IMG/VR virus record: IMGVR_UViG_3300011008_000006
Length of the DNA: 64,000 nucleotides
Source of the DNA: a virus
Lineage: Duplodnaviria; Heunggongvirae; Uroviricota; Caudoviricetes
Strand: one strand, 5' to 3'
A model generated the notes under the pieces. The model worked only from the letters and a program-made list of their open reading frames with translations. It was not told the DNA's origin and ran no database searches. Positions 36,008-60,431 of this stretch are shown here, piece after piece. The position numbers were made by a program, and so were the translations under genes. The first letter of the stretch is position 1; each line of letters opens with the position of its first letter.

Positions 36008-37369
36008 TTAAGTTAATTCTTGTGCCTCTTCAATATCAGGAGCAGTAGCTTCATCCTTCGCAATACCTTCCAGTACTTTAAAAGAGAAGTTCTTATGCTT
36101 ATATACAGCAAAGTTAGAACGGTTCAAGATACGAGCGACAACACCTTCGCGTACATGGGTTTTACCAATTGGGTCAGGACCGTCAAAGTATTCTTCTACG
36201 CGACGAAGTACATATTCACCTGGATTTACAGGAATATAATCACCATGAAGGCCAGGCACAGAGTCAGGCACGAAGAAGCGACAAAATTCAGGTACAACAT
36301 TTACGCCCATTTGTTCGCAACGCTCACGAATTTGGTCAGGAGAATATTCAACTACATCGCCATCTTCGTTTACCATAGTCATACGATAAACATATACTTC
36401 ACAACAAGGTGCTTCTATTGCAGTTTCTTCCCAAGGTCCATGCTGATCACAGCCATATGCAAAAGTAGTAGTGTCTCCATATAGCTTAGTAAATTCTGGA
36501 TCTTTTACTTTGTTATTGGCAACCTGGCTCATAATAGGTGCTCCATCTGGGCCCTGGAAACCTACAATTTCGTAATATACTACTTCACCCTTATGAAGTT
36601 TTCCTTCAAACTTTGCTGCCATTGCATGACGGAAATCATCACTTTCATAGAAACCGCCATTGCGTATTCCATCAAGTACCACGCGACGAGTACCAGTAAT
36701 ATAGCCATATTCCATATAGTCCTTACCATGACGATGGAACAATTTATCAAGCCAAGTGCGCTTAGTATGAAGTAAAGGTAAATAGCCAGTACGCCCTGAA
36801 GTTCCGTGCATTTTTAGAGTGAGTTGTACTAGGTCACCAGGCTTAAATACATCTAGATTATAAGCGAGCTGCGCAGTATCTACATGTTCGTAGAAGGTAG
36901 GCGCAATATTAGCTTTTGCCTTTTTAGTGGCATTAGCTCCGTGACTGCGAGAATAAGTATTCGCGCGAGGAATATATTTCTGACAAATTAGTTCACCATT
37001 AACAGTATCAATAGTATCTCCAACCTTTAGATCAGAAATCTTACAAAAATCAGCAAGAGAAGTCAAAGGCATAAAAAGACCGTCAGATTTTTCGCCGCGA
37101 AGCTTTAGTGCCTTAATGTTGCGCTTATCGGGGTCAAGATAACCGCCACAAGGTTTACCATTTTCATCTTTACGCCGCACTAGGTCATTTACAGCGCAAT
37201 AACGCTCGGAGAGTTGACCGTCTACAGGGAAATAAATTCCCTTATCTCCAATATGAGTATCAAGACTTACAATAGTATCATTACCAAAGAAGGTAGCAAT
37301 TTGCAGTCTATCAGCATTAGAATGTTTACGAAGTTCTTTTACTTCAACAATATATCCACAATAAGGCAT
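36008..37369 (-). CDS. RNA ligase (Rnl2-like KxHG nucleotidyltransferase) fused to an N-terminal tRNA-binding (Trbp111/EMAP-like) domain
   Basis: N-terminal HSNADRLQIA...GDKG OB-type tRNA-binding motif, then motif I LKMHGTSGR; 453 aa. Confidence 0.5.
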   Translation of the reverse strand: MPYCGYIVEVKELRKHSNADRLQIATFFGNDTIVSLDTHIGDKGIYFPVDGQLSERYCAVNDLVRRKDENGKPCGGYLDPDKRNIKALKLRGEKSDGLFMPLTSLADFCKISDLKVGDTIDTVNGELICQKYIPRANTYSRSHGANATKKAKANIAPTFYEHVDTAQLAYNLDVFKPGDLVQLTLKMHGTSGRTGYLPLLHTKRTWLDKLFHRHGKDYMEYGYITGTRRVVLDGIRNGGFYESDDFRHAMAAKFEGKLHKGEVVYYEIVGFQGPDGAPIMSQVANNKVKDPEFTKLYGDTTTFAYGCDQHGPWEETAIEAPCCEVYVYRMTMVNEDGDVVEYSPDQIRERCEQMGVNVVPEFCRFFVPDSVPGLHGDYIPVNPGEYVLRRVEEYFDGPDPIGKTHVREGVVARILNRSNFAVYKHKNFSFKVLEGIAKDEATAPDIEEAQELT

Positions 37370-41591: not shown

Positions 41592-43094
41592 TTATTTAAT
41601 GTTAGCGTATCTAGGCTCATTTAATTTTTCAAACATTAAAGCCATTCCGTCTTTACCAGAAAGAATAGTCTTTACCATATTCATGGAAAAACCGCTTACA
41701 TAGGAAAATTTATCTCCGATAGCAGGAATATTCTCGTGACGAGCATCAAGATTCCAGAAGATAATACGAGGTGTAGTGTATCCATGCGCTTTCCACTTTT
41801 TCATCTGCGCTTCAATTAGAGTATTGATATTATCTGTTGTGCTAAGTGGTTTGCGGATACGACGACCCCACATATCATAAGCCCATTCATTAGAAGTAAG
41901 AGTATGATTAAACTCCATATCACTGAAGATATATAGAGTCTTAGGCATATCTTCTGGTTTTACTTTTTTCTGAATGGCAGTATGAAGTAGCAAATCAAAT
42001 ACGGATTCAATATTAGTAGAATTATTCCAATTTGCATTTCTAGCGCGCCAGAATTTATCATAAATATCAATACCTTTAAACTCAACAAGTTCAGGATTAT
42101 CTGAGAAGGTGATGAAGTGATTATGGAATGGGCCCTTACCACGTTCAGCAATATAAGCGCCCATAGATACCGCAGCGTTTAATGGTTGACCGTACATACT
42201 ACCACTAACGTCAACAATAGCAATACCGGGCTCTTCGCGGCCAGCATAATAGTCTTCAAGATTATCCCAATACTTTTGCCAAGTAAGACGCTCAATTTCA
42301 GTTGTGCGCCAAGAATTAGAAAAAATTTGATTAGCAATATCAACAGGATTTAGTACCTTAGCATTTACTTTAGTAGTCTTATCAGACATAAATGCCTTGT
42401 ACTGTTCTTTGATAATATCTCTCTTCGCAAAAGCATTCTTATAAATTAGACCAGCGCGAGAAGGAATTTTATCAAATTTAATTTCATCCCAACGATTTTG
42501 AGACATTAAGGTTTCGACAATGTTGATGCGGTTGCGGAGTAGAGATAGCATCTTACGGTATGCACGAGGAGTTAGGTCAAGAGCTTCACGAGTTTTCTGG
42601 CCTAATCTGCGGCTTTCATAAGAAGAAGTATTTTCACTCTTACACCACTTTGCAAGCAAAGAAGGAGTGTTGCATTCAACGTCAAGAATTAACTGCTTGC
42701 AAATAAACTCAAACATTTCCTTTTCAACAGGAGTATCTACTAGGGAATATAGGTCATCCCAACGTCCCATTTCAGGGATAAATTTCATGTTGCGAATTAC
42801 TGCATCTTTATTTTCGCGCGCGAGCCATTTAATAACTATACGGAAGAAACGACGTTCGCCTGCGCCGCCGCGGCAGTCACGAAGATAGAATAAACACTTT
42901 AGCGCGTATTCTGGATTTTCTTCATATGCATTTTTAAACATTAGAATAACGTCATCGTCAGAACGATTACGCATAGAACCGCCCATACCAAACATATCTA
43001 ATAGCGCGGATTTAGTAGTCTTATGAGTGATAGCACCATTTTCGGTGTGAGTATAATTAAAATTGTCCTTTAACCCATTTAGTAATGTATTCAT
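41592..43094 (-). CDS. DUF2828-like / Ro60(TROVE)-like protein with C-terminal vWA domain
   Basis: YLRDCRGGAGERRFF, typical of DUF2828, plus MIDAS IVDVSGSM; 500 aa. Confidence 0.45.
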   Translation of the reverse strand: MNTLLNGLKDNFNYTHTENGAITHKTTKSALLDMFGMGGSMRNRSDDDVILMFKNAYEENPEYALKCLFYLRDCRGGAGERRFFRIVIKWLARENKDAVIRNMKFIPEMGRWDDLYSLVDTPVEKEMFEFICKQLILDVECNTPSLLAKWCKSENTSSYESRRLGQKTREALDLTPRAYRKMLSLLRNRINIVETLMSQNRWDEIKFDKIPSRAGLIYKNAFAKRDIIKEQYKAFMSDKTTKVNAKVLNPVDIANQIFSNSWRTTEIERLTWQKYWDNLEDYYAGREEPGIAIVDVSGSMYGQPLNAAVSMGAYIAERGKGPFHNHFITFSDNPELVEFKGIDIYDKFWRARNANWNNSTNIESVFDLLLHTAIQKKVKPEDMPKTLYIFSDMEFNHTLTSNEWAYDMWGRRIRKPLSTTDNINTLIEAQMKKWKAHGYTTPRIIFWNLDARHENIPAIGDKFSYVSGFSMNMVKTILSGKDGMALMFEKLNEPRYANIK

Positions 43095-43143: not shown

Positions 43144-43743
43144 TTATAGTGGGTAATTGTAAAGTTCTTTCATAGGAACTCCAAATTTTTGCATTTCATT
43201 CCATCTATTTCGAATATCGGTAATTGCTTCATCAATATGCACTGGTGTACAATTATGACTATCCATACCAACATGGTACATAAATGGATTATCTGGCTGA
43301 AGCCAATTTTTTTGTTGATGAGTGTGCCCGTGCATATTAATTACATGCTGTGAAAAATGTTTATCATCATAATTTGCAGTTAATGTTGGATAATGCGAAA
43401 GATAAATAGAATATTTTCCATATTTAAACATATGTGCATATCCAAGTGTAATAATATTTGGGCACTCTGTATGAATGAGCATTTGCCGCGATGGCGAATC
43501 ATGGTTGCCCCAAATGATATTAATTGTTCCATTAAGACTCTTTAGACATTCTAGACCAATTTTATTATTTGTAAGCATAATATCACCAAGATGAATTACT
43601 GTATCATCTGGCTTTACCACCTTATTCCATCTTTCAATGATAGCTTCATTCATTTCTTCTACACTTTGAAAACCACGTGGTTCCCATAGGAACATGGGCT
43701 GATGCGCGAAATGAGTGTCGCTGGTGAGAAAAATTTCGCCCAT
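43144..43743 (-). CDS. calcineurin-like metallophosphoesterase
   Basis: SDTHF, GDI, GNHD and GHTH motifs. Confidence 0.7.
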   Translation of the reverse strand: MGEIFLTSDTHFAHQPMFLWEPRGFQSVEEMNEAIIERWNKVVKPDDTVIHLGDIMLTNNKIGLECLKSLNGTINIIWGNHDSPSRQMLIHTECPNIITLGYAHMFKYGKYSIYLSHYPTLTANYDDKHFSQHVINMHGHTHQQKNWLQPDNPFMYHVGMDSHNCTPVHIDEAITDIRNRWNEMQKFGVPMKELYNYPL

Positions 43744-44225
43744 TAAACTTCTCCTTCAATAAACCACTTACCTATTTCGCGTGAATCTTCTTTATCTGGA
43801 ATAGTAAGTTTCGCGCGCATATCACGAATTACATCTTCTGGAACATTTGCATGCCCAACACGATTTTTATTATGTTCAATGCATACTTCCGCGGAGGCAA
43901 GAAATACAATATAAATAATATTATAATCTGTATAATATTTATCAATCGCATTTGTAAGTTTCTTACGGGCCGCAGTATTTAAATGAGTAGCATCAGCAAC
44001 TGCATTATAGTTATTTTTTAAAGCGGTAACAATTTCATTAATAAAATCATTATAAACTTCATTTTCAAAATCAAAATAATGCGCATTTGGATTTTTATCA
44101 AGATAACGGAATCGAATAGTGTCACGAGATACCCAAACAATATGTCCATTATTAGAAAAATTTGCCGCGAAAGTTGACTTGCCGCACCCGGGGGCACCAA
44201 TTAAAATATATAAAGTAGATTTCAT
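43743..44225 (-). CDS. P-loop polynucleotide-kinase-like kinase (Pnk kinase-domain-like)
   Basis: LIGAPGCGKST resembles T4 Pnk TIGCPGSGKST; start taken at MKSTLY. Confidence 0.5.
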   Translation of the reverse strand: MKSTLYILIGAPGCGKSTFAANFSNNGHIVWVSRDTIRFRYLDKNPNAHYFDFENEVYNDFINEIVTALKNNYNAVADATHLNTAARKKLTNAIDKYYTDYNIIYIVFLASAEVCIEHNKNRVGHANVPEDVIRDMRAKLTIPDKEDSREIGKWFIEGEV

Positions 44226-44226
44226 T

Positions 44227-44505
44227 TTATTCCTCTTCTTGATAATTAAGTTTATCAATTTGTTTTCTATCTCTCATGCTCCAATTGGTATTAGGAAGCC
44301 AAGAATTTTTAATATGTTTATTATTTGTTTTTTCAGCACATAGAGGACAAGAACAATGAATTTTATTTTTTGAATATTGATGTAAATTATCATACCAGTC
44401 ATGATGATAGGTACCCGTATCAAGCGCACGATCAAGATTTCGTTTACGAATTGCTTTTTTCCAATCATTATGGCGTTTTTCCGCGGTGTCTCTCATAATA
44501 ATCAC
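44227..44505 (-). CDS. hypothetical protein (Cys/His pairs)
   Basis: 92 aa ORF with CSCPLC. Confidence 0.3.
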   Translation of the reverse strand: MIIMRDTAEKRHNDWKKAIRKRNLDRALDTGTYHHDWYDNLHQYSKNKIHCSCPLCAEKTNNKHIKNSWLPNTNWSMRDRKQIDKLNYQEEE

Positions 44506-49543: not shown

Positions 49544-49695
49544 TGAGGGAAAGTGAGGAATCGAACCTCAACCAAGAAGCAATGCCCATACACCACATTC
49601 CCATAAATCCCACAATTTACCATTCCATATGCCCTTATGTTCTGGTAGTAGAGAATGGTGGGTTTCTACTCTACATTTCCCTCCTCAACGGGCGA
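49544..49695 (-). ncRNA. about 150 nt elongated tRNA-like RNA
   Basis: T-arm TGAGG-TTCGATT-CCTCA. Terminal 8 bp stem GAGGGAAA/TTTCCCTC. D-like stem GTAGAG/CTCTAC. About 90 nt GC-rich insert. The region carries only a spurious ORF (49543..49788). Confidence 0.3.
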
Positions 49696-49828
49696 GGTGT
49701 CCGGCGTACTCTTATGGTGGCCGCGCTTCACCTTTTGGGAGTTGCCGCTCCCGCACTACTTTCGGCAACAAGTAGACTGGCATTTTAAATAGAACAGGTT
49801 GTTCGCGTGTTGGTCATATATTTAATAA

Positions 49829-49901
49829 TGCACACAGACGGACTCGAACCGCCGACACCCACGGTGTAAACGTGGTGCTCTCCCAACTGAGCTATGCGTG
49901 C
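49829..49901 (-). tRNA. tRNA-Val (anticodon TAC)
   Basis: Acceptor GCACGCA/TGTGTGC, D-arm GCTC/GAGC, anticodon stem CCACG/CGTGG, loop TTTACAC, T-arm GGCGG-TTCGAGT-CCGTC. Confidence 0.85.
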
Positions 49902-49905
49902 ATAT

Positions 49906-49981
49906 TGGAGCCTACGGTCAGATTTGAACTGACTACCTCTTCTTTACCATAGAAGTGCTCTACCAATTGAGCTACGAAGGC
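49906..49981 (-). tRNA. tRNA-Thr (anticodon GGT), CCA encoded
   Basis: Acceptor GCCTTCG/CGTAGGC (1 mismatch), D-arm GCTC-AATTGGTA-GAGC, anticodon stem CTTCT/AGAAG, loop ATGGTAA, T-arm GTCAG-TTCAAAT-CTGAC. Confidence 0.7.
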
Positions 49982-50078
49982 ACGCGTCGCAACTTTTTTA
50001 GCTTTACATGTGAAGTTGCGGAACGCACATGGGTCGGTTTTGTGTTGATCAGACACTGCTGACGGGCGCCGCCGCCAC

Positions 50079-50153
50079 TGGTACCTCACCAGGGACTTGA
50101 ACCCTGACAACTTTGATTAAGAATCAAATGCACTACCATTATGCTAGTGAGGT
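50079..50153 (-). tRNA. tRNA-Lys (anticodon CTT), CCA encoded
   Basis: Acceptor ACCTCAC/GTGAGGT, anticodon stem TTTGA/TCAAA, loop TTCTTAA, T-arm CAGGG-TTCAAGT-CCCTG. Confidence 0.85.
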
Positions 50154-50157
50154 ATAT

Positions 50158-50231
50158 GGTGCGGGTATTGGGAGTCGGACCCAACGTGCTCACATTAAAA
50201 GTGTGATGCCATACCGCTTGGCTATACCCGC
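50158..50231 (-). tRNA. tRNA-Lys (anticodon TTT), CCA encoded
   Basis: Acceptor GCGGGTA/TACCCGC, D-arm GCCA/TGGC, anticodon stem TCACA/TGTGA, loop CTTTTAA, T-arm TTGGG-TCCGACT-CCCAA. Confidence 0.8.
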
Positions 50232-50301
50232 TAACGTACAAATTATATTTTACATCGACCTGTACCCGATGACTGGTCTTATAGGCAGAACCAGCGTGCC
50301 T

Positions 50302-50460
50302 TGGTGGAAAGTGGGGGATTTGAACCCCAGGTGATGTGCGGACCACCTTCGGTGCGTGCAATTAAAATGCTCATATGACCCTTACGCATAGACCTCTGTT
50401 TGCCCGAGGCCGGTGACGATTGCCACAGCGGACGCTACCCTGATGCGTCAATCACTTCCC
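50302..50460 (-). ncRNA. about 159 nt elongated tRNA-like RNA with encoded CCA
   Basis: 5' GGGAAGT pairs with 3' ACTTTCC (7 bp, one G.U), followed by A-CCA. T-arm TGGGG-TTCAAAT-CCCCC. D-like stem GACGC/GCGTC with GG loop. About 95 nt internal GC-rich insert. Confidence 0.4.
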
Positions 50461-50646
50461 ATTAATAATTTCCCATTCATCTTCACCTGGGACAATAGCA
50501 CAACCGCCCCAAGTTCCATGAATTAGTCCCGCATCATCAATATATTTAACAATTCCTTCTTTTCCAGTATACTGTGGTTCACCAGACATAAAGATAATTC
50601 TAACTTTATCTCCAACCTTAGTCATCTTTTTCTCCCCTTTCAACAT
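50452..50646 (-). CDS. hypothetical small protein
   Basis: 64 aa ORF. Confidence 0.35.
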   Translation of the reverse strand: MLKGEKKMTKVGDKVRIIFMSGEPQYTGKEGIVKYIDDAGLIHGTWGGCAIVPGEDEWEIINGK

Positions 50647-50650
50647 ATTT

Positions 50651-50679
50651 ATTATAACATAATTTTAATATAATGTCAA
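50651..50679 (-). promoter_or_regulatory. consensus promoter for gene 50452..50646
   Basis: attata 50651-50656; tgtcaa 50674-50679. Confidence 0.6.
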
Positions 50680-50683
50680 TTAA

Positions 50684-50926
50684 TTATTCCCATTGAAATT
50701 TATTAATTTTTCTTGGAATATCATTATACCATTTTTTATGTGCGCCGCAATTGGGACAATAATGATATATTTTATTTAAGTCAATTTCTGTTTTAAAAAT
50801 ATCTGTACTATGAGATATTTTATGACAAGGATAATAAAATCCACATTTACAATAGGCATAAAAGGCACAATCACCTTTATATCTTCGTATATCCCAATTA
50901 TGATCAATTTGCCTACCTTTTCGCAT
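50684..50926 (-). CDS. hypothetical Cys-rich small protein
   Basis: 80 aa ORF. Confidence 0.3.
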   Translation of the reverse strand: MRKGRQIDHNWDIRRYKGDCAFYAYCKCGFYYPCHKISHSTDIFKTEIDLNKIYHYCPNCGAHKKWYNDIPRKINKFQWE

Positions 50927-50948
50927 AAAATCTCCTTAGAAACAAAAT

Positions 50949-50985
50949 AACTAGGAAATTATTCCTAGTTATTCAATTTTAAAGC
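50949..50985 (-). terminator. rho-independent terminator after the tRNA-Gly(GCC) unit
   Basis: aactaggaa / ttcctagtt stem. On the minus strand it is followed by TTATTTTGTTTCT. Confidence 0.55.
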
Positions 50986-51053
50986 GGCTAACCAGGCTCG
51001 AACTGGTGATGGATGCATGGCAAGCATCAATGTTACCGCTACACTATAGCCGC
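50983..51053 (-). tRNA. tRNA-Gly (anticodon GCC)
   Basis: Acceptor GCGGCTA/TAGCCGC, D-arm GTGT/ACAT, anticodon stem GATGC/GCATC, loop TTGCCAT, T-arm ACCAG-TTCGAGC-CTGGT. Confidence 0.8.
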
Positions 51054-51142
51054 ATAAAACTAGACCATTTAATTTGAGAAAGGATTTGTAGCAAAAATAT
51101 TTTCTTTAATTCATTAAATAATTGCTGTAATGGTCTAAACTA

Positions 51143-51237
51143 TGGCAACCCCTCTGGGAGTCGAACCCAGAACAACCTGCTTCAGAGGCATATCACGGTT
51201 TTAGAGACCGGTGCTCTACCAATTGAGCTAAGGGGCT
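51143..51237 (-). tRNA. amber-suppressor tRNA (anticodon CTA, reads UAG); type-II-like with about 24 nt variable region; G73; CCA encoded
   Basis: Minus-strand sequence AGCCCCT-TA-GCTC-AATTGGTA-GAGC-A-CCGGT-CTCTAAA-ACCGT-[GATATGCCTCTGAAGCAGGTTGTT]-CTGGG-TTCGACT-CCCAG-AGGGGTT-G-CCA. The anticodon loop is CTCTAAA, so positions 34-36 read CUA. Confidence 0.7.
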
Positions 51238-51327
51238 ATAATAAATAACACGACGATTTAAAATTAGCTACATAATTTAAAAGATTATTGCTTATATTAT
51301 TATAAAAATTTGCTGTAATCGTCGTAA

Positions 51328-51403
51328 TGGTCTCCCGTGAAGGATTTGAACCCTCATTAATAGATCCGTAGTCTATTGTCCTAGTCCATTAGACGAACGA
51401 GAG
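51328..51403 (-). tRNA. tRNA-Arg (anticodon ACG), CCA encoded
   Basis: Acceptor CTCTCGT/ACGGGAG, D-arm GTCT/GGAC, anticodon stem ATAGA/TCTAT, loop CTACGGA, T-arm GAGGG-TTCAAAT-CCTTC. Confidence 0.8.
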
Positions 51404-51543
51404 ATAGTGGAGGGAGAATATTTACGACCTTCTCCTCCCGTTACAGGTCCACTGACGTGCAAGTCTTCTAAGGTAACTTGTTCCCTTCACGTTTAGCTAA
51501 TGTTAAGAGTCGCCGCTATATGTCCCACGCTCTTAACATAATT

Positions 51544-51572
51544 ATTATAACATAATTTTAGAAAGAAGTCAA
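51544..51572 (-). promoter_or_regulatory. consensus promoter driving the tRNA-Arg / suppressor tRNA / tRNA-Gly unit
   Basis: attata 51544-51549; agtcaa 51567-51572. Confidence 0.6.
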
Positions 51573-51575
51573 ATA

Positions 51576-51905
51576 TTAATATTCCTTATATCCATAATGG
51601 GTAAGTAGTTGCCGCATATTCTGTACACCAACAGGATTCATACTATGGATGTGAAAACCGGCAAGTGGAATTCGGTGTTGAATAATAAACTTACAAATAT
51701 CATAACCAGAATATTCATAATTATCATCATCAAAACCAAGATCATGGTCAAGGTCAATGAAAATTTCATCTGTAAGATGTTGAGTGAGAACTTGTACAGT
51801 CTGATTATAATCGCGACAGATGATTAGACGCCACTCGGGATAAAGATTCATATTATAATAAGTATCATCATCACGAATATCATCTACGTAAATGTAAATT
51901 TTCAT
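51576..51905 (-). CDS. hypothetical protein
   Basis: 109 aa ORF; its 5' UTR shares a motif with the gene at 52015..52353. Confidence 0.35.
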   Translation of the reverse strand: MKIYIYVDDIRDDDTYYNMNLYPEWRLIICRDYNQTVQVLTQHLTDEIFIDLDHDLGFDDDNYEYSGYDICKFIIQHRIPLAGFHIHSMNPVGVQNMRQLLTHYGYKEY

Positions 51906-51989
51906 ATTGCTCCTTTCAATATAAAAGACACTTTGTTTAACAATTATTGCGGCCTTCTTTTCGTACTTCCGCCTGCTCCTCGCAATATT

Positions 51990-52018
51990 ATTATACTATA
52001 AATTTTATACAATGTCAA
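51990..52018 (-). promoter_or_regulatory. consensus promoter for gene 51576..51905
   Basis: attata 51990-51995; tgtcaa 52013-52018. Confidence 0.6.
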
Positions 52019-52353
52019 CTATTAAAATTATTAATTGTTTCTAACAAATAATTAATAATTTCTCTAATTGATTCAATAGTATAATCAATATTAGATTTAG
52101 TAGCTAATTCTGCAACCTGCATCTCAATTAACGTAGTTTTATTAGGAATAAAAATTGCTAATAAAATTAAAATTATAGGAATTATGTAAAAAATAATTTT
52201 CCATTTTGGGAATTTATTATTTTCTACTACGAATTCAATTAATGTAACTATAATACTAATACCATATAGCACTGAAAATACAATTAAAAATATTTTAAAA
52301 CCATCACAAACATTTAGCCAGTAGAACCACATTGGATTAATAATATAATTCAT
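52015..52353 (-). CDS. hypothetical membrane protein
   Basis: 112 aa, hydrophobic; preceded by a roughly 585 nt GC-rich leader. Confidence 0.35.
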   Translation of the reverse strand: MNYIINPMWFYWLNVCDGFKIFLIVFSVLYGISIIVTLIEFVVENNKFPKWKIIFYIIPIILILLAIFIPNKTTLIEMQVAELATKSNIDYTIESIREIINYLLETINNFNS

Positions 52354-52379
52354 TTAATACTCCTTTCTGTATAGAAAAC

Positions 52380-52965
52380 TCTCTGTTTAACAATTAGCGT
52401 GACCTTCGCCATACCAATTATCTTCTTCTTGTATATTATGCTACTATTGACCATTAGGCTGTAGCATGAGTAGCGACCTCATACCATCTAATAGCCGCGC
52501 TTTCGCGCCGAGAATAGGAAGGATTGTCTACCTTCAAGTTTCACCCAAGCCATTCAGCAATATGAAAAGAATTAAAACGCTTCTTTTTAATAACATATTC
52601 ATTTGCTGTCTTGAGCTACTCCAACCGTAAACCTCACTTATATGCCATTTCTGACTTTCACCGACAGTAGCGACTTGTGGTTATTTCCAGAGGTTGTATT
52701 GGCTACCACCCCAACACCTTATCTGGATTCGGCCTGGCTCTTAACCTAGCTTTCTATTGTGCCGCCGTGAGGAATCGTGCATTTACAAGCGAAGTAATCG
52801 GCGCCTACCCTTAACATTTGGAGTTTCTCCCTTATCGCTAACTATTACTAGTTTCGCGTCGCATACTTGAAAGTATCCCATCAAGGTCTGCGATGTTATC
52901 CAGGTAGCCCAAGCTGTGTGGCTAACACATCTTCACTTGGTTCGTAATTGCTAAACAGAGAGTTC
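52380..52965 (-). ncRNA. about 585 nt GC-rich structured RNA element in the 5' leader of gene 52015..52353, closed by an 18 bp terminal helix
   Basis: 5' end CTCTCTGTTTAGCAATTA and 3' end TAATTGTTAAACAGAGAG are reverse complements with one G.U. The paralogous leader of gene 51576..51905 has the same AATTGTTAAACA motif without the insert. No ORF. Confidence 0.45.
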
Positions 52966-52989
52966 TTTGTTTCCCTTTCTTACATATTT

Positions 52990-53018
52990 ATTATAACATA
53001 AATTTGGAAGAAAGTCAA
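52990..53018 (-). promoter_or_regulatory. consensus promoter driving the 585 nt structured leader and gene 52015..52353
   Basis: attata 52990-52995; agtcaa 53013-53018. Confidence 0.6.
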
Positions 53019-53329
53019 GTATTTAATTCATATTTTTCCTGTTCTTTTTCCCATTGACTTACTGGCGGAAAATAACGTCCACATAGTGGACAATGAAATA
53101 ATCTTTTATTATATCCGCCACCATTTGTTTCATATAGTATTGGATAATCTACTCTTAGATAAACTTCTGCTTCTGTTTCAACTGGAATATAATCACAAGT
53201 ATAGCCACCATGCCCATCATGACCTTCATAATGATAATTTACAATTTTATCATATTTAATACGTTTTTTAATACCTAATGGATAATATGGGCCATTACGA
53301 GGAGTATTTTTTTCACAGACGCAGGACAT
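53015..53329 (-). CDS. hypothetical zinc-binding protein
   Basis: 104 aa ORF with C..C...C..C. Confidence 0.35.
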   Translation of the reverse strand: MSCVCEKNTPRNGPYYPLGIKKRIKYDKIVNYHYEGHDGHGGYTCDYIPVETEAEVYLRVDYPILYETNGGGYNKRLFHCPLCGRYFPPVSQWEKEQEKYELNT

Positions 53330-53361
53330 ACTTTTACCTCTTTCTTCCTTTTATATATTTA

Positions 53362-53390
53362 TTATATCATAGATTTTGAGAAAAGTCAAA
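53362..53390 (-). promoter_or_regulatory. consensus promoter for gene 53015..53329
   Basis: attata 53362-53367; agtcaa 53385-53390. Confidence 0.6.
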
Positions 53391-53394
53391 TAAT

Positions 53395-53467
53395 GTCCAA
53401 TAAAGGATTTGAACCTTCAAAAACATGGTCCTTAGCCATGCGCGTCTGCCGTTGCGCCAATTGGACA
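53395..53467 (-). tRNA. type-I tRNA with anticodon AAG (second copy; identity unclear)
   Basis: Acceptor GTCCAAT/ATTGGAC, D-arm GCGC/ACGC, anticodon stem CATGG/CCATG, loop CTAAGGA, T-arm GAAGG-TTCAAAT-CCTTT. Confidence 0.5.
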
Positions 53468-53471
53468 TAGT

Positions 53472-53551
53472 AGCCCGCCTCAGATTTGAACTGAGAACCC
53501 GAAGGCACGCATTTTGAGTGCGCTGCGTAAACCAATTTCGCCAGCGGGCCA
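53472..53551 (-). tRNA. tRNA-Leu (anticodon CAA), type II
   Basis: Acceptor GGCCCGC/GCGGGCT, A73, 3-bp D-stem, anticodon stem GCGCA/TGCGT, loop CTCAAAA, variable arm GCCTTCGGGTT, T-arm CTCAG-TTCAAAT-CTGAG. Confidence 0.7.
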
Positions 53552-53559
53552 TACGTAAA

Positions 53560-53986
53560 TAGGCTGTTCGTCAAATTCCATTTAACATTGCGGGCATAGG
53601 GATTTCACCTTACCTCAGATTCATCATTCTGCACCTATTTACACAATAATTAGCTGTTCATCTAACTCCATTTACTACTGCTGCTTTTCCCGCGTGAGCA
53701 ATCTCAACACTGTCTTAGGATTTTTCCTCGGAATTTTTGATTGCTCTTGTTTCAGCGTACATCTCCACAAGGACTTAGCTGATTGGCTTCGTAGCACTAA
53801 TTATTTTACATAGGTTATTGTTCCACTATCAACTACTTACAGGGTCCTCTTACCCAAGCCAACAATAGGCTGGTTTTCAATACCATTTAACTTCTGCCTT
53901 TTGACGCCCAAGTCTTTTGGTACAGCTCATCAAACAGCACTCTTACCATATCCTTGATTCGTTACGAAAGTACCTATTTTCAAAAA
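53560..53986 (-). ncRNA. about 430 nt GC-moderate non-coding segment between the 134 nt tRNA-like RNA and tRNA-Leu
   Basis: No ORF; transcribed within the tRNA operon that starts at promoter 55627..55655. Confidence 0.3.
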
Positions 53987-54120
53987 TGGTGCTGGTGGCC
54001 GGACTCGAACCGGCACGCTCAAAGAGCATCAGATTTTAATGGTACTCGGCACTGGTGCTGCCCCAGCGAAAGTCACTGGACACCGAGTGTCTGAGGTGTC
54101 TGCCATTCCACCACACCAGC
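53987..54120 (-). ncRNA. about 134 nt elongated tRNA-like RNA with encoded CCA
   Basis: Acceptor GCTGGTG/CACCAGC (perfect) followed by A-CCA. T-arm GCCGG-TTCGAGT-CCGGC. About 60 nt extra GC-rich sequence between the D region and the T-arm. Overlaps spurious ORF 54055..54252. Confidence 0.4.
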
Positions 54121-54273
54121 ATGAATGCTACTATTAACCGTCGTAGCCACGTGCTCCCCTGGTACGCATTGTTAAGAGGCGTGGGCAAGTCTATTAAAAC
54201 TAGATACGCTTATCTTCCCGGAGCCGACCCGGTGCTTCAAAATACCGCTTGAGAAGAAAAATTGCTGACGTAT

Positions 54274-54344
54274 CTCGGCTTGGAGCGGCATACCCGATTT
54301 GAACGGGCGAAATTTGCTTGGAGGGCAAAGGTGTTACCACTACA
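54274..54344 (-). tRNA. tRNA-Gly (anticodon TCC)
   Basis: Acceptor GCGGCAT/ATGCCGC, D-arm GTGT/ACAC, anticodon stem TTTGC/GCAAA, loop CCTCCAA (C33 is unusual), T-arm GCCCG-TTCAAAT-CGGGT. Confidence 0.6.
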
Positions 54345-58279: not shown

Positions 58280-58544
58280 ATTATCACCATATAAAAAAAA
58301 TAAACTAGACGGTCTTTTTTAATGCGACCAACTACACCACGCGGCCGGAGCCCACCCGACCACGGAGGGAATCGAACCCTCGCCTTAATTTTACAGAATT
58401 ATTTTCAAAGAAAAAAATTGCTGACCCGTCTTATGGGCTATGGTGTAGCAAGTAAGATTTGAACTTACAGTGTTAGACGGCCCGTCGGCAAAAACATCTA
58501 ACAACTCTCCCGCGTAAGCATTACTTTGGTCGCTTACTGGTTGC

Positions 58545-58570
58545 CACATAAAAGCCGAGCACACCCTCGG
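58545..58570 (-). terminator. rho-independent terminator ending the 1.9 kb non-coding transcript
   Basis: Minus strand reads GCCGAG-GGTGTG-CTCGGC followed by TTTTAT. Confidence 0.55.
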
Positions 58571-58893: not shown

Positions 58894-60431
58894 CTATAAT
58901 ACCCACATCCGGGAACGATCCGGAATTTTCACCTTGAAAGGGTGACGAACTAACCAATTATTCGATGCGGGCATAATTCCAGTGTTGGCGCACCGGAATA
59001 GCGAAACGCCGCCGACTAGTTATTATTACGCCAATAATAATAACAAACTTTTTTTAAACTTTTAATCTTTGTTTTTCATCGACTTTGCTTCTCACATTTT
59101 TACACAGATACGTGTCAACTGTTTGCTCTTCATTGGAATCGAACCAATCCTTCCGGGCGTGCTTTCCATTACACTATCAGAGCATAACTGCGCGTTTTGA
59201 TAACCCAGACGCGAAGTCACTCTACTGGGGAGGGAAATTCATCCACTCATACTGCGTTCAACTGTTGATCAAGCAATCGTAATTATGGGTTAGCTTTCAC
59301 CCATACCCCATATCCGTCGGGTCGCATTTACCTACACATTGTGACGGGTGCGGAGGGCCCTTCCACCGCTTTTCTGATTTATCGACAATCAGTAAGGACT
59401 TCACCCATTACTTTCCTTCCATCCCGTTTTTCGGCATCCTTTTTAAGTGTAAGGTCACTAATTTTCCCATCCCATTTTTTGAAAGGCTTAGTTTGGAAAA
59501 TCTAACGTCCTGTCGTTGCCTTTTATAACCATTTCACAGAATGGACTCACTTATTTATACTAGGTCTCTCCTAGATTTAATTGGCTGTTCTTCAAACTCC
59601 ATTTAGCCCATTCTTCACTTTGCTTGTATAGCTGCTTGCAAGCCAGCTTTGCTTTTCAAAAGCTAATACATTGAGCATTTGGGCACCATACTATGCGCTT
59701 CCCGTCATCCCTGGCGGAGCCATGTCCATAGCGTTATGTAATGAGAATCTCGCATTACATCCATACAACTAGTTGTGAAAACGATTCATTTCCACTTTTT
59801 CGATAACTAGTAATTACTTTGGCTATCAGGTTGCCATCCCAATCTAACGATGATTGACGACCTGTGAATAAGGTTTTAACAGGTTTTACTTACCGCACCT
59901 GTACCATCGGTAGCTTACGCCGCACTTATTGGTGTTTTGGAACCATACGCTCTCCAGTTGCCACCTTTGAGCGGGGCTAGACTCTAAGTGCATCAGGGTT
60001 TTCTGACATCATTGTGCCTCTACCTTTTCGCCCTAACATCACTACGTCGATGTTTCTCATCTTGAACGGATACCTTCTAACGGTCTGGTATCAACCGTTG
60101 GTCGCAGATAATGGAGTTGGACCATTTCCTCAAGCGTTATGAGCGCCGCGGCTTAACCGTTTGCCCTATCTGCGATAAAGAGAAAATATTTTCTCTTTAC
60201 GATACTTACAGCATAATTTTAAAAAAAGTCAAGGCACATAAAATTCTTTTGCATTACCATACTATGCTACTTGCCCAATGGGGCGAGACGAGATTTGAAC
60301 TCGCGATTCAAAGATTATCTTTGATTTTGCTGTATGTGCCTTTAAATGGAAAGTACGAGAATCGAACTCGTGTCCGCTGCGTGCAAAGCAGCAATTCTAG
60401 CCCCTAAACTAACTCCCCATCTCATATATCT

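What the first reader, a model, noticed from the sequence alone, without database searches (positions are those of the whole stretch)
49544..54120. Family of elongated (134-159 nt) tRNA-like RNAs near a Ro60/DUF2828-like gene; are they Y RNA-like?
There are three elements, at 49544-49695, 50302-50460 and 53987-54120. Each has a perfectly paired terminal stem of 7-8 bp (two followed by A-CCA), a canonical T-arm, and a D-like stem with a GG loop. Each also carries a 60-95 nt GC-rich insert where the anticodon and variable region should be.

The inserts are too short for group I introns and do not sit in an anticodon loop. This architecture matches bacterial and phage Y RNAs, which have a tRNA-like domain plus a terminal helix and bind Ro60 (Rsr). 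The window also encodes a TROVE/DUF2828-like vWA protein (41592..43094), an RNA ligase with a tRNA-binding domain, a Pnk-like kinase and phosphoesterases. Together these could form an RNA-surveillance or tRNA-repair module.
Basis: inference. Interest (0 to 1): 0.7.

Follow-up and report, generated by a model that had tools for sequence, protein, structure and literature searches.

The report
Interrupted phage tRNA plus tRNA mimics
The three flagged RNAs are not one family of Y RNAs: one is a phage leucine tRNA gene split by a tiny tRNA-shaped intron, one is a conserved alanine-type tRNA look-alike of unknown job, and one is part of a larger knotted RNA, so together they point to unusual RNA processing in large rumen phages.

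Summary
The window is part of a roughly 180-kb rumen-type phage. It carries a minus-strand array of about 30 tRNAs, a ROOL RNA and an RNA-repair gene set. The three elements exist, but they are unrelated to each other and none fits a Y RNA.

- **E3 (53987-54120)** is a clean tRNA-Leu(UAA). A 49-nt insert sits between anticodon-loop nucleotides 32 and 33. The insert folds as a 7-bp stem plus a 5-bp/7-nt hairpin plus an ACCA tail, which is a tRNA acceptor/T minihelix. At least 10 distinct relatives interrupt Leu, Ile, Lys, Asn, Thr and Pro tRNAs by the same rule, with strong covariation. One of them is a complete nested tRNA(CUA).
- **E2 (50302-50460)** belongs to a conserved stand-alone family (14 full-length sequences aligned). 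It has an invariant G3·U70/A73/CCA acceptor (alanine identity), D and T arms, and about 80 structured nucleotides in place of the anticodon arm. It has no conserved ORF.
- **E1 (49544-49695)** is a composite. Its 5' two-thirds are the end of a conserved pseudoknotted RNA that starts about 90 nt upstream. Its 3' third is a T-arm remnant.

The parts
54089..54120 (-). E3, 5' exon of tRNA-Leu(UAA): acceptor 5' strand, D arm, anticodon stem 5' strand, C32
   Evidence: ARAGORN with introns. The spliced sequence is called tRNA-Leu(taa), 85 nt.
54040..54088 (-). E3 insert (49 nt), a tRNA-minihelix-like intron. P1 5' strand 54082-54088; linker GUCCAGUGACUUUC; hairpin GCUGG-GGCAGCA-CCAGU 54051-54067; P1 3' strand 54044-54050; tail ACCA 54040-54043.
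   Evidence: Strict structural scan. Covariation in alignment A4: 12/12 pairs 100% paired, 9 with changes on both sides, 0/500 shuffles reach the observed value. Model R1 scores 57.1 bits, E 1.6e-10.
53987..54039 (-). E3, 3' exon: U33-UAA-AA, anticodon stem 3' strand, long variable arm, T arm, acceptor 3' strand, ACCA
   Evidence: The 86%-identical homologue L002 8004-8137 has compensated changes in the acceptor, anticodon and T stems.
50302..50460 (-). E2, alanine-identity tRNA-like RNA. Acceptor 50454-50460/50306-50312 with G3.U70; D arm 50431-50449; about 80-nt central domain 50351-50430; variable-arm hairpin about 50329-50348; T arm about 50313-50329; ACCA 50302-50305.
   Evidence: 14 distinct full-length homologues aligned (A2). 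Structure counts: 98.2% of cells paired, 17 pairs with changes on both sides, 0/500 shuffles. RNAalifold consensus.
49600..49783 (-). Conserved pseudoknotted RNA ('X element') whose 3' part makes up the 5' two-thirds of E1
   Evidence: nhmmer hit to L091 1704-1900 and alignments. Compensated hairpins, kissing loops UUGCCG/CGGCAA (L091: UUACCG/CGGUAA) and pseudoknot CCCAC/GUGGG (L091: GUCGC/GCGAC), read from the sequences.
49544..49599 (-). 3' third of E1: T arm UGAGG-UUCGAUU-CCUCA plus an acceptor-like 3' strand, without a tRNA body. Probably a tRNA remnant.
   Evidence: There is no anticodon loop. ARAGORN's intron call is poor, with a mismatched D arm and pair 7-66. L091 has an intact tRNA-Lys(UUU) at this position.
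41592..43094 (-). Ro60-like protein (helical TROVE-like ring plus vWA domain; Pfam DUF2828 + DUF7788)
60228..60342 (-). YrlA-like RNA candidate: 10-bp terminal helix, V hairpin, T arm, closed acceptor-like stem-loop, D arm
   Evidence: Rfam RF02553 37.2 bits (gathering threshold 69), E 4e-5 over 18 kb. Sequence read.
43743..44258 (-). Pnk-like P-loop kinase (AAA_33; weak match to bacterial Pnkp)
   Evidence: Lies close to the Ro60-like gene in relatives.
43144..43743 (-). Calcineurin-like metallophosphoesterase (Metallophos_2)
36008..37369 (-). ATP-dependent RNA ligase with N-terminal OB domain (DraRnl/PHA02142 type)
   Evidence: Pfam RNA_ligase and PHA02142 matches, both below Pfam's cutoff. 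TIGR02306, E 4e-13, below its cutoff. Relatives have this ligase or a T4 Rnl1-type ligase in the same place.
51576..51905 (-). cREC_REC (cyclic-phosphate processing receiver domain) protein inside the tRNA array
   Evidence: Pfam, E 1.3e-17. Found in the tRNA arrays of relatives L001-L007.

Best explanation
The three elements are three different RNAs in a phage tRNA/ncRNA array.

(1) E3 is the phage's only UUA-reading tRNA, tRNA-Leu(UAA). Its gene is interrupted between nucleotides 32 and 33 by a 49-nt intron.
- Shown: the intron begins with a 7-bp stem (P1). It ends with a 5-bp/7-nt hairpin stacked on the P1 3' strand, followed by ACCA. This is the acceptor/T 'minihelix' half of a tRNA, with its 3' end directly abutting the 3' exon.
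- Shown: removing the intron restores a canonical 7-nt loop.
- Shown: the same rule holds for related inserts in other phage tRNAs.
- Inferred: the precursor is cut by enzymes that recognise tRNA ends. RNase P would cut at the 5' side of P1, and an unidentified nuclease would cut after the NCCA tail. This would leave 3'-OH and 5'-phosphate ends. The two tRNA halves, still held together by the cloverleaf, would then be sealed by the phage RNA ligase. The kinase and phosphoesterase would be available if the ends need healing.

(2) E2 is a stand-alone, independently transcribed tRNA-like RNA.
- Shown: it is conserved, it covaries, and G1-C72, G2-C71, G3.U70, A73 and CCA are invariant.
- Inferred: it is matured like a tRNA and charged with alanine. 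It acts in a translation-linked process through the structured domain of about 80 nt that replaces its anticodon arm. The exact role is unknown.

(3) E1 is not a unit. It is the 3' end of a conserved pseudoknotted RNA fused to a tRNA remnant.
For: E3:
- ARAGORN with introns calls tRNA-Leu(taa) with a 49-nt intron at 32/33. The spliced form is a normal 85-nt tRNA.
- UUA is 46% of Leu codons in 21 ORFs, and no other UUA reader is present.
- L002 has an 86%-identical copy with compensated changes in both the exons and P1.
- The same architecture occurs in Leu-UAA (two different positions), Ile-UAU, Asn-GUU, Lys-UUU, Thr-UGU and Pro-UGG tRNAs of relatives. Splicing by the rule gives clean tRNA calls in 10 of 11 cases.
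- In the mini-intron alignment 12/12 pairs are 100% paired, and 9 have changes on both sides.
- The model finds only copies inside anticodon loops in 766 kb, and none standing free.
- The L003 insert is itself called a complete tRNA(CUA), so RNase P must cut there.
- Two Lak megaphage introns (Supplementary Table 6 of PMC6784885) also end in a 7-8-bp stem plus a UUCGAUU/UUCGAAU T arm 2-3 nt before the 3' exon.
- Ligase, kinase and phosphoesterase genes are present. The kinase and phosphoesterase lie next to the Ro60-like gene in all relatives examined, and a ligase lies downstream in the two long enough to show it.

E2:
- 14 distinct full-length homologues were aligned. Acceptor pairs 1-3 never vary while pairs 4-7 covary. 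The D, H2, H3, variable and T helices are supported.
- L065 has a promoter-like site upstream and L068 a terminator directly downstream.
- E2 shares its acceptor, GCUGU and UUGCACGCA with the window's tRNA-Ala(UGC).

E1.
Against: - There are no expression, end-mapping or splicing data.
- No nuclease is known that cuts exactly after an encoded CCA and leaves the downstream piece intact. RNase Z normally cuts after N73.
- The tail is ACAA in L065 and only 2 nt in L032 and in the Lak introns.
- The Lak introns carry a leader of about 26 nt before the tRNA-like part, so RNase P cannot define their 5' splice site.
- No endonuclease, RNase Z or RtcB gene was found in the window.
- For the isolated type-A introns the minimum-energy fold prefers a different inner hairpin, and z-scores are modest at -1.2 to -2.0.
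- For E2, alanylation is inferred only from identity elements. U8 is replaced by G8.
- E1 rests on a single homologue.
Confidence: 0.65

Rival explanations
1. One reading: E1-E3 are Y RNA-like (YrlA-type) partners of the Ro60-like protein. They would tether it to effectors in an RNA-surveillance module.
For: The protein has a Ro60 fold. tRNA-like modules are a hallmark of bacterial Y RNAs (PMC4201824). The elements are on the same strand as the Ro60-like gene.
Against: There is no RF02553 hit at E1-E3. The topology is reversed, the GNCGAA motif is absent, and the elements lie 6.4-10.9 kb from the gene against a 4-kb criterion. E3 is explained as a tRNA, and E1 is not a unit. A better candidate exists at 60228-60342.
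Confidence: 0.06
2. The E3-type introns are removed by a dedicated endonuclease or by self-cleavage that leaves 2',3'-cyclic phosphate and 5'-OH ends. The ends are then healed by the Pnk-like kinase and the metallophosphoesterase and sealed by the RNA ligase, as in the T4 Pnkp/Rnl1 pathway. On this view the tRNA shape of the intron reflects its origin rather than its processing.
For: The kinase and phosphoesterase lie next to the Ro60-like gene in relatives, with an RNA ligase downstream in the longer contigs. A cREC 'cyclic-phosphate processing' domain gene sits inside the tRNA arrays of the relatives recovered with it. The leader in the Lak introns argues against RNase P setting the 5' site. 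The conserved linker and loop nucleotides CCAGUGRCUU / RGCAGCA could be a protein site or a catalytic core.
Against: No endonuclease candidate was found in the window. No known self-cleaving ribozyme family matches at E<=5. The junction positions follow tRNA-end geometry rather than any sequence motif.
Confidence: 0.25
3. The insert is never spliced out. The nested minihelix or tRNA would be the functional product, released by tRNA-processing enzymes. The outer tRNA would be only a scaffold, a decoy for anticodon nucleases, or a dead gene.
For: The L003 insert is a full suppressor tRNA(CUA). Insert sequences are highly conserved. Other acceptor/T-like RNAs ending in NCCA stand free in the array, such as 58441-58547.
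Against: The outer exons keep every tRNA feature through compensated changes. They restore a perfect 7-nt loop in 10 of 11 cases. E3 is the only UUA reader although UUA is the commonest Leu codon. The mini element is never found outside an anticodon loop.
Confidence: 0.12
4. E2 is a drastically reduced tmRNA, an alanine-charged ribosome-rescue RNA. Its mRNA-like part would lie in the domain of about 80 nt.
For: It has a G3.U70/A73/CCA acceptor and a T arm like the tmRNA tRNA-like domain. Its overall topology is that of a tRNA-Ala with a large insertion at the anticodon position. The H3 loop GGGCAAACAG contains GCA AAC, the first two codons of the E. coli tag (my own knowledge). The window has no tmRNA, while relative L032 has one.
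Against: No reading frame is conserved. The GCA frame gives ANRS*, ANRG*, a 10-12-codon ORF, or no stop at all, depending on the sequence. The hairpin loop carrying UAA varies from 6 to 9 nt and loses UAA in L091 and L094. E2 has a regular D arm, unlike tmRNA. Rfam and ARAGORN report no tmRNA there.
Confidence: 0.12

Closest known systems
'Enigmatic' tRNA introns of Lak megaphages (Devoto et al. 2019, PMC6784885)
   Same: They are inserts of tens to about 100 nt in the anticodon loops of phage tRNAs (Tyr, Phe, Gly, Thr) with no Rfam class. One was noted to look like a tRNA. On my reading of their Supplementary Table 6, the Tyr and Phe introns end in a 7-8-bp stem plus a T arm 2-3 nt before the 3' exon.
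   Different: The window's intron is a 49-nt minimal form. P1 starts right at the 5' junction with no leader, the tail is an encoded ACCA, and the host tRNA (Leu-UAA), insertion position (32/33) and phage group (about 180 kb, ROOL-bearing) are different. No mechanism was proposed in that paper.
Group I intron of tRNA-Leu(UAA)
   Same: It interrupts the same tRNA in the same loop. Relatives L032 and L065 carry an intron in their tRNA-Leu(UAA); the L032 intron is a group I intron by Rfam, and the L065 intron (198 nt) was not classified.
   Different: At 49 nt the insert is far too small to be a group I ribozyme. There is no RF00028 match, and the insert is a tRNA-minihelix mimic.
YrlA / bacterial Y RNAs with Ro60 (Rsr) (Chen et al. 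2014, PMC4201824)
   Same: They have tRNA-like D and T arms and are encoded near a Ro60-type protein and RNA-repair enzymes. M. smegmatis YrlA is cut by RNase P and receives CCA.
   Different: In YrlA the 5' and 3' ends form the Ro-binding helix and the acceptor-like stem is closed. E2 and E3 have open acceptor stems with NCCA. Only the separate RNA at 60228-60342 has the YrlA layout.
tmRNA (SsrA)
   Same: E2 shares the alanine identity set, the T arm, the CCA end and a large structured insertion at the anticodon position.
   Different: E2 is about 159 nt, keeps a D arm and a variable arm, has no conserved tag ORF, and gives no tmRNA model match.
T4 Pnkp/Rnl1 and bacterial Pnkp/Hen1 tRNA repair
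   Same: They comprise kinase, phosphoesterase and RNA ligase genes able to reseal a tRNA broken in the anticodon loop.
   Different: Here the break would be programmed by an intron in the phage's own tRNA rather than inflicted by a host anticodon nuclease. The enzymes are separate genes next to a Ro60-like protein.

Membership tests
YrlA / Y RNA-like (Rfam RF02553) | Covariance-model score at or above the gathering threshold (69 bits) | tested here: not met
   There is no hit at E1-E3 at E<=5 or E<=10. The only hit worth noting is elsewhere, at 60228-60342, with 37.2 bits.
YrlA / Y RNA-like (Rfam RF02553) | The 5' and 3' ends pair to form the Ro-binding helix carrying GNCGAAN0-1G, and the acceptor-like stem of the tRNA module is closed by a loop | tested here: not met
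   Read from the sequence: the ends of E2 and E3 form an open 7-bp acceptor stem followed by ACCA, and the motif is absent. Definition taken from PMC4201824.
YrlA / Y RNA-like (Rfam RF02553) | Encoded within 4 kb of the Ro60 gene and on the same strand | tested here: not met
   The strand is the same, but E1, E2 and E3 start 6.4, 7.2 and 10.9 kb from 43094.
YrlA / Y RNA-like (Rfam RF02553) | Bound by the Ro60 orthologue | not testable with these tools
   Needs immunoprecipitation.
tRNA with an intron (E3) | Removing one contiguous insert gives a full cloverleaf with a 7-nt anticodon loop, a T loop and a D loop | tested here: met
   ARAGORN calls tRNA-Leu(taa), 85 nt, after removal of 54040-54088.
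tRNA with an intron (E3) | Exon helices maintained by compensated changes in homologues | tested here: met
   Window versus L002: acceptor U3-A70 to C-G, anticodon stem UCAGA/UCUGA to CGAGA/UCUCG, T stem G-C to A-U.
tRNA with an intron (E3) | The spliced, aminoacylated tRNA is present in vivo | not testable with these tools
   Needs RNA-seq, Northern blot or acid gel.
Group I intron | Catalytic core (P3-P9), about 200 nt or more, RF00028 match | tested here: not met
   The insert is 49 nt with no hit. The homologous tRNA in L032 does have a 65.5-bit group I intron.
Archaeal/eukaryal bulge-helix-bulge intron | Two 3-nt bulges separated by a 4-bp helix at the splice sites | tested here: not met
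   Read from the sequence: the 5' site lies 1 nt after the anticodon stem at the base of P1. The 3' site lies 4 nt after P1, followed by 6 unpaired nucleotides. No BHB can be drawn.
Lak-type phage tRNA introns | A non-group-I insert in the anticodon loop of a phage tRNA, ending in a tRNA-like stem plus T arm | tested here: met
   for the window and its relatives. for two Lak introns, on my reading of their Supplementary Table 6.
tmRNA (E2) | tRNA-Ala-like acceptor (G3.U70, A73, CCA) and T arm | tested here: met
   Pairs 1-3 are invariant (GC, GC, GU in 14/14) while pairs 4-7 covary.
tmRNA (E2) | Conserved tag reading frame with a resume codon and an in-frame stop | tested here: not met
   The frames were read on alignment A2. 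They are not conserved, and the UAA-bearing loop varies from 6 to 9 nt.
tmRNA (E2) | Match to RF00023, or detection by ARAGORN | tested here: not met
   Only an 11.7-bit T-loop fragment matches. ARAGORN -m finds nothing.
Ro60 / TROVE + vWA protein (41592-43094) | Helical-repeat ring followed by a vWA domain, superimposable on Ro60 | tested here: met
Ro60 / TROVE + vWA protein (41592-43094) | Sequence match to Ro60 (PDB sequences) or assignment to a Ro/TROVE family by Pfam | tested here: not met
   Pfam reports only DUF2828 and DUF7788. Sequence and profile searches of the PDB do not reach Ro60.

The most novel reading that the evidence does not exclude
Phage tRNA genes carry a previously unrecognised class of protein-processed intron that is itself a miniature tRNA. 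Its boundaries would be set by the machinery that matures tRNA ends: RNase P at the 5' base of the mimic and a nuclease that measures the 3' end at its NCCA. The phage RNA ligase would then rejoin the two tRNA halves. Splicing would therefore be tRNA processing plus tRNA repair, possibly releasing a second functional RNA from the intron, as with the nested suppressor tRNA in L003. Independently, E2 would define a new class of alanine-charged tRNA-like RNA.
Probability: 0.25. Interest if true: 0.85.

Novelty: new variant of a known kind. Interest (0 to 1): 0.72.

Why it matters
- Introns in bacterial and phage tRNAs are thought to be essentially all group I ribozymes. The short introns reported in Lak megaphages were left unexplained.
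- A simple structural rule now covers inserts in six kinds of tRNA across a second group of large phages: P1 at the 5' junction, a T-like hairpin, and an NCCA tail at the 3' junction. The rule makes the splicing mechanism directly testable with RNase P and the phage ligase.
- It offers an explanation for why such phages carry tRNA-repair enzymes and a Ro60-like protein next to their tRNA arrays.
- It shows that standard annotation misses essential phage tRNAs, here the only UUA reader.
- The E2 family adds a conserved, probably alanine-accepting tRNA mimic that is in no RNA database. That is relevant to how phages manipulate translation or ribosome rescue.

Tried and rejected
- **E3 insert as a group I intron or known small ribozyme:** there are no Rfam hits at E<=5, and 49 nt is too small.
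- **E3 insert as a BHB intron:** the junction geometry does not fit.
- **E1 as tRNA-Ile(UAU) with a 45-nt intron (ARAGORN -i):** rejected. The D arm and pair 7-66 are mismatched and there is no credible anticodon loop. The homology with L091 runs across the supposed 5' end and stops before the T arm.
- **E2 as an ochre-suppressor tRNA(UUA):** a brute-force deletion scan gave 151 of 170 calls for this reading. It was rejected because the 'anticodon loop' is 6-9 nt long in homologues and loses UAA in two of them.
- **E2 as a classical tmRNA:** rejected because no ORF is conserved.
- **E2 as an E3-type interrupted tRNA-Ala:** no P1/hairpin/tail element is present and no anticodon stem can be restored.
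- **Searches that gave nothing useful:**
  - INPHARED phages returned only generic tRNA matches.
  - The genome contigs motif scan gave only chance matches among the first 120 rows.
  - Sequence and profile searches of the PDB with the DUF2828 protein did not reach Ro60.
  - Exact-protein look-ups returned only short contigs of the same phage.
  - Literature searches for nested or tRNA-like introns and for tmRNA-like phage RNAs found nothing.
  - One search was wasted on the word 'trove'.

Full report
**Context.** All genes in the window are on the minus strand. ARAGORN finds 28 tRNAs between 44.8 and 61 kb. Rfam adds a ROOL RNA at 52380-52964 (317.7 bits) and one more tRNA. The DNA is 33% G+C. 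The closest relatives are uncultivated viral contigs of roughly 100-190 kb that also carry ROOL, and nothing close exists among sequenced phages. None of the three flagged stretches is reported by ARAGORN or by Rfam, even at permissive thresholds.

**E3 (53987-54120) is an interrupted tRNA.**
- With introns allowed, ARAGORN calls a class II tRNA-Leu(UAA). It has a perfect acceptor stem, D arm, long variable arm, T arm and encoded ACCA, and a 49-nt insert between loop nucleotides 32 and 33.
- Deleting 54040-54088 leaves an ordinary 85-nt tRNA with the loop CUUAAAA.
- The tRNA matters to the phage. UUA accounts for 310 of 670 Leu codons in 21 long ORFs, and the array's other Leu tRNAs have anticodons AAG and CAA.

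**Anatomy of the insert.** It reads ACUCGGU | GUCCAGUGACUUUC | GCUGG-GGCAGCA-CCAGU | GCCGAGU | ACCA.
- A 7-bp stem (P1) starts at the first intron nucleotide.
- A 5-bp/7-nt hairpin is followed directly by the P1 3' strand, giving 12 stacked base pairs.
- A 4-nt ACCA tail abuts the 3' exon.
- This is the geometry of the acceptor/T half of a tRNA with its discriminator and CCA.

**Relatives of the E3 insert.** Loci fetched through the cREC protein, through a DNA motif and through other neighbouring genes contain the same arrangement in other tRNAs:
- An 86%-identical copy in tRNA-Leu(UAA) of L002.
- A 47-nt homologue sharing CCAGUGRCUU-N8-GCAGCAC, placed between nucleotides 35 and 36 of tRNA-Leu(UAA) in L003, L006, L012 and L018.
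- A 49-nt homologue in tRNA-Ile(UAU) of L009.
- A 49-50-nt type in tRNA-Asn(GUU) of L007 and L065, where the L065 tail is ACAA.
- Longer, cloverleaf-like versions in Ile(UAU) (L003 and L006, 77 and 74 nt), Lys(UUU) (L001, L005 and L015, 70-105 nt), Thr(UGU) (L065, 116 nt, tail UCCA) and Pro(UGG) (L032, acceptor plus D plus T arms, tail AC).

Further results on this family:
- Splicing by the rule gives default ARAGORN tRNA calls in 10 of 11 cases. The 77-nt L003 insert is itself called a tRNA with anticodon CUA.
- In an alignment of five mini-introns all 12 pairs are always paired. Nine have changes on both sides, and no shuffle or slid register comes close.
- A covariance model built from that alignment finds only these anticodon-loop copies in 766 kb. 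It finds none standing free, only one in the window, and nothing in E1 or E2.
- The same insert family occurs at three different positions and in two kinds of tRNA, which argues that it moves between tRNA genes.

**Relation to published work.**
- Lak megaphage genomes were reported to contain 'enigmatic' tRNA introns without an Rfam class. One of them was predicted to encode a tRNA.
- I read the Tyr and Phe introns in their Supplementary Table 6. Both end in a 7-8-bp stem plus a UUCGAAU/UUCGAUU T arm 2-3 nt before the 3' exon, but about 26 extra nucleotides precede the stem.
- The window's insert is thus a minimal variant of that phenomenon.
- I found no paper that proposes a mechanism.

**Mechanism for E3 (inferred).**
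- Bacterial RNase P accepts acceptor/T minihelices with a 3' CCA (established knowledge). It must in any case cut at the 5' end of the complete tRNA nested in L003.
- A cut there, and a second cut after the tail, would leave a 3'-OH on the 5' exon and a 5'-phosphate on the 3' exon. An ATP-dependent RNA ligase can seal these ends.
- The window encodes such a ligase at 36008-37369 (DraRnl/PHA02142 type, below family cutoffs). It also encodes a Pnk-like kinase, a metallophosphoesterase and a cREC domain protein inside the array. The kinase and phosphoesterase flank the Ro60-like gene in all relatives examined. A ligase lies downstream in L216 (the same type) and L217 (a T4 Rnl1-type ligase).
- Weak points:
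  - The nuclease for the 3' cut is unknown.
  - The tail is not always CCA.
  - The Lak introns have a 5' leader.
  - No endonuclease gene is in the window.
  - Isolated type-A introns have alternative inner folds.
- A route through cyclic-phosphate ends followed by healing and sealing is a serious rival.

**E2 (50302-50460) is a separate, conserved RNA.**
- Pattern searches recovered homologues in viral and metagenome contigs. Fourteen distinct full-length sequences were aligned.
- The consensus has a 7-bp acceptor stem, GA, a 5-bp D stem with loop AUCAGGGNA, a 6-bp variable-arm hairpin, a T arm with UUCAAWU, and then A-CCA.
- In place of the anticodon arm there are about 80 nucleotides. These comprise a variable hairpin often capped by GNRA, a hairpin with the invariant loop GGGCAAACA, the block GCGUAAGGG, a 3-bp hairpin whose loop varies from 6 to 9 nt, and the invariant AAUUGCACGCRCCGAAG.
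- Across 39 proposed pairs, 98.2% of cells are paired and 17 pairs change on both sides.
- Acceptor pairs 1-3 are GC, GC and GU in all 14 sequences, while pairs 4-7 covary. With A73, this is the identity set read by alanyl-tRNA synthetase (established knowledge), so alanylation is the natural inference.
- The acceptor, GCUGU after the D arm, and UUGCACGCA also match the window's own tRNA-Ala(UGC), which suggests descent from it.
- L065 has a consensus-like promoter ending 18 nt upstream of its copy. L068 has a terminator hairpin 3 nt downstream of its copy.
- E2 is not a suppressor tRNA, because the loop length varies. It is not a classical tmRNA, because no frame is conserved and it keeps a D arm.
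- Its function is unknown. A translation-linked role as an Ala-charged mimic is my best guess, for example tmRNA-like or interfering with alanine tailing.

**E1 (49544-49695) is not a unit.**
- Its only homologue, L091, aligns from about 90 nt upstream of E1 (window about 49783) to about 49600 and then stops. In L091 an ordinary tRNA-Lys follows.
- The shared RNA has several features that are compensated between the two sequences:
  - a hairpin pair changing from G-C to A-U;
  - kissing loops UUGCCG/CGGCAA against UUACCG/CGGUAA;
  - a fully replaced 6-bp hairpin;
  - a loop-to-downstream pseudoknot CCCAC/GUGGG against GUCGC/GCGAC.
- The remaining 56 nt of E1 are a T arm and an acceptor-like 3' strand without a tRNA body. 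The 8-bp 'terminal stem' is not conserved.

**The Ro60 idea.**
- Pfam sees only DUF2828 and DUF7788 in the protein at 41592-43094, and sequence searches of the PDB do not reach Ro60.
- An AlphaFold model built from 40 homologues (mean pLDDT 79.6) superimposes best on Ro60 proteins over both the helical ring and the vWA domain.
- A 115-nt RNA at 60228-60342 has the YrlA layout. It has a perfect 10-bp terminal helix, a V hairpin, a T arm, a closed acceptor-like stem-loop and a D arm.
- It does not overlap annotated tRNAs, so it is not the tRNA-dimer artefact that Chen et al. warn about. However, it scores only 37 bits and lies 17 kb from the gene.

**Verdict.** The Y RNA interpretation is not supported for these elements. 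The most interesting outcomes are the tRNA-mimic intron rule and the alanine-type tRNA-like family. Both are supported by covariation, and both still lack experimental evidence.

Noticed in passing
window 60228-60342 (-): A YrlA-like RNA candidate (Rfam 37.2 bits, gathering threshold 69). It has a perfect 10-bp terminal helix, T arm, closed acceptor-like stem-loop and D arm. It is a possible partner of the Ro60-like protein but lies 17 kb away. A partial YrlA hit also occurs at L065 1421-1485.
   Followed up: partly
window 52380-52964 (-): A full-length ROOL RNA (317.7 bits) lies inside the tRNA array, flanked by small ORFs. ROOL was also found in seven of the related loci scanned with Rfam (L001, L002, L003, L005, L006, L032, L065).
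   Followed up: no
window 58441-58547 (-): A 107-nt RNA with a 7-bp acceptor-like stem, two hairpins, a T-like hairpin and ACCA, not called as a tRNA. It is conserved in L002 4984-5090 and L065 353-460 with some compensated pairs.
   Followed up: partly
window 49600-49783 (-): A conserved RNA of unknown class with kissing loops and a pseudoknot, lying downstream of tRNA-Val(UAC). In L091 it starts 4 nt after tRNA-Val and ends at tRNA-Lys. Only one homologue was found.
   Followed up: partly
window 51143-51237 (-): A 95-nt class II amber-suppressor tRNA (anticodon CUA). None of 21 long ORFs ends in TAG (17 TAA, 4 TGA), which hints at TAG reassignment. Its homologues in L002 and L032 carry a 173-174-nt insert.
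   Followed up: no
L003 5741-5817: A complete tRNA(CUA) with its own acceptor stem, D, anticodon and T arms and ACCA is nested in the anticodon loop of tRNA-Ile(UAU). L006 has a degenerate 74-nt version with compensated acceptor changes.
   Followed up: partly
window 51404-51530, 54121-54280, 53551-53986 (-): Further G+C-rich intergenic stretches in the array are conserved in relatives (L065 4077-4190 and 1764-1841, L015, L087, L002, L003, L004). They match no Rfam family.
   Followed up: no
window 51576-51905 (-): A cREC_REC (cyclic-phosphate processing receiver) domain protein is encoded inside the tRNA array here. It is also found among the tRNAs of the related phages recovered with it (L001-L007).
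   Followed up: no
window 50452-50625 (-): The stop codon of a DUF4314-like small ORF lies inside the 5' acceptor strand of E2 (GGG AAG UGA), so the gene and the RNA overlap by 9 nt.
   Followed up: no
L002 2733-2787; L032 6872-7224; L087 6898-7030: Related arrays also hold an HDV-like ribozyme hit directly after tRNA-Ala (37.8 bits, gathering threshold 44), a tmRNA (95 bits), and drum, skipping-rope and cow-rumen-3 RNAs.
   Followed up: no
window 60102-60174 (-): A tRNA with anticodon CAU is found by Rfam (43.5 bits) but not by ARAGORN. It is the only Met/Ile2-type tRNA seen in the window.
   Followed up: no
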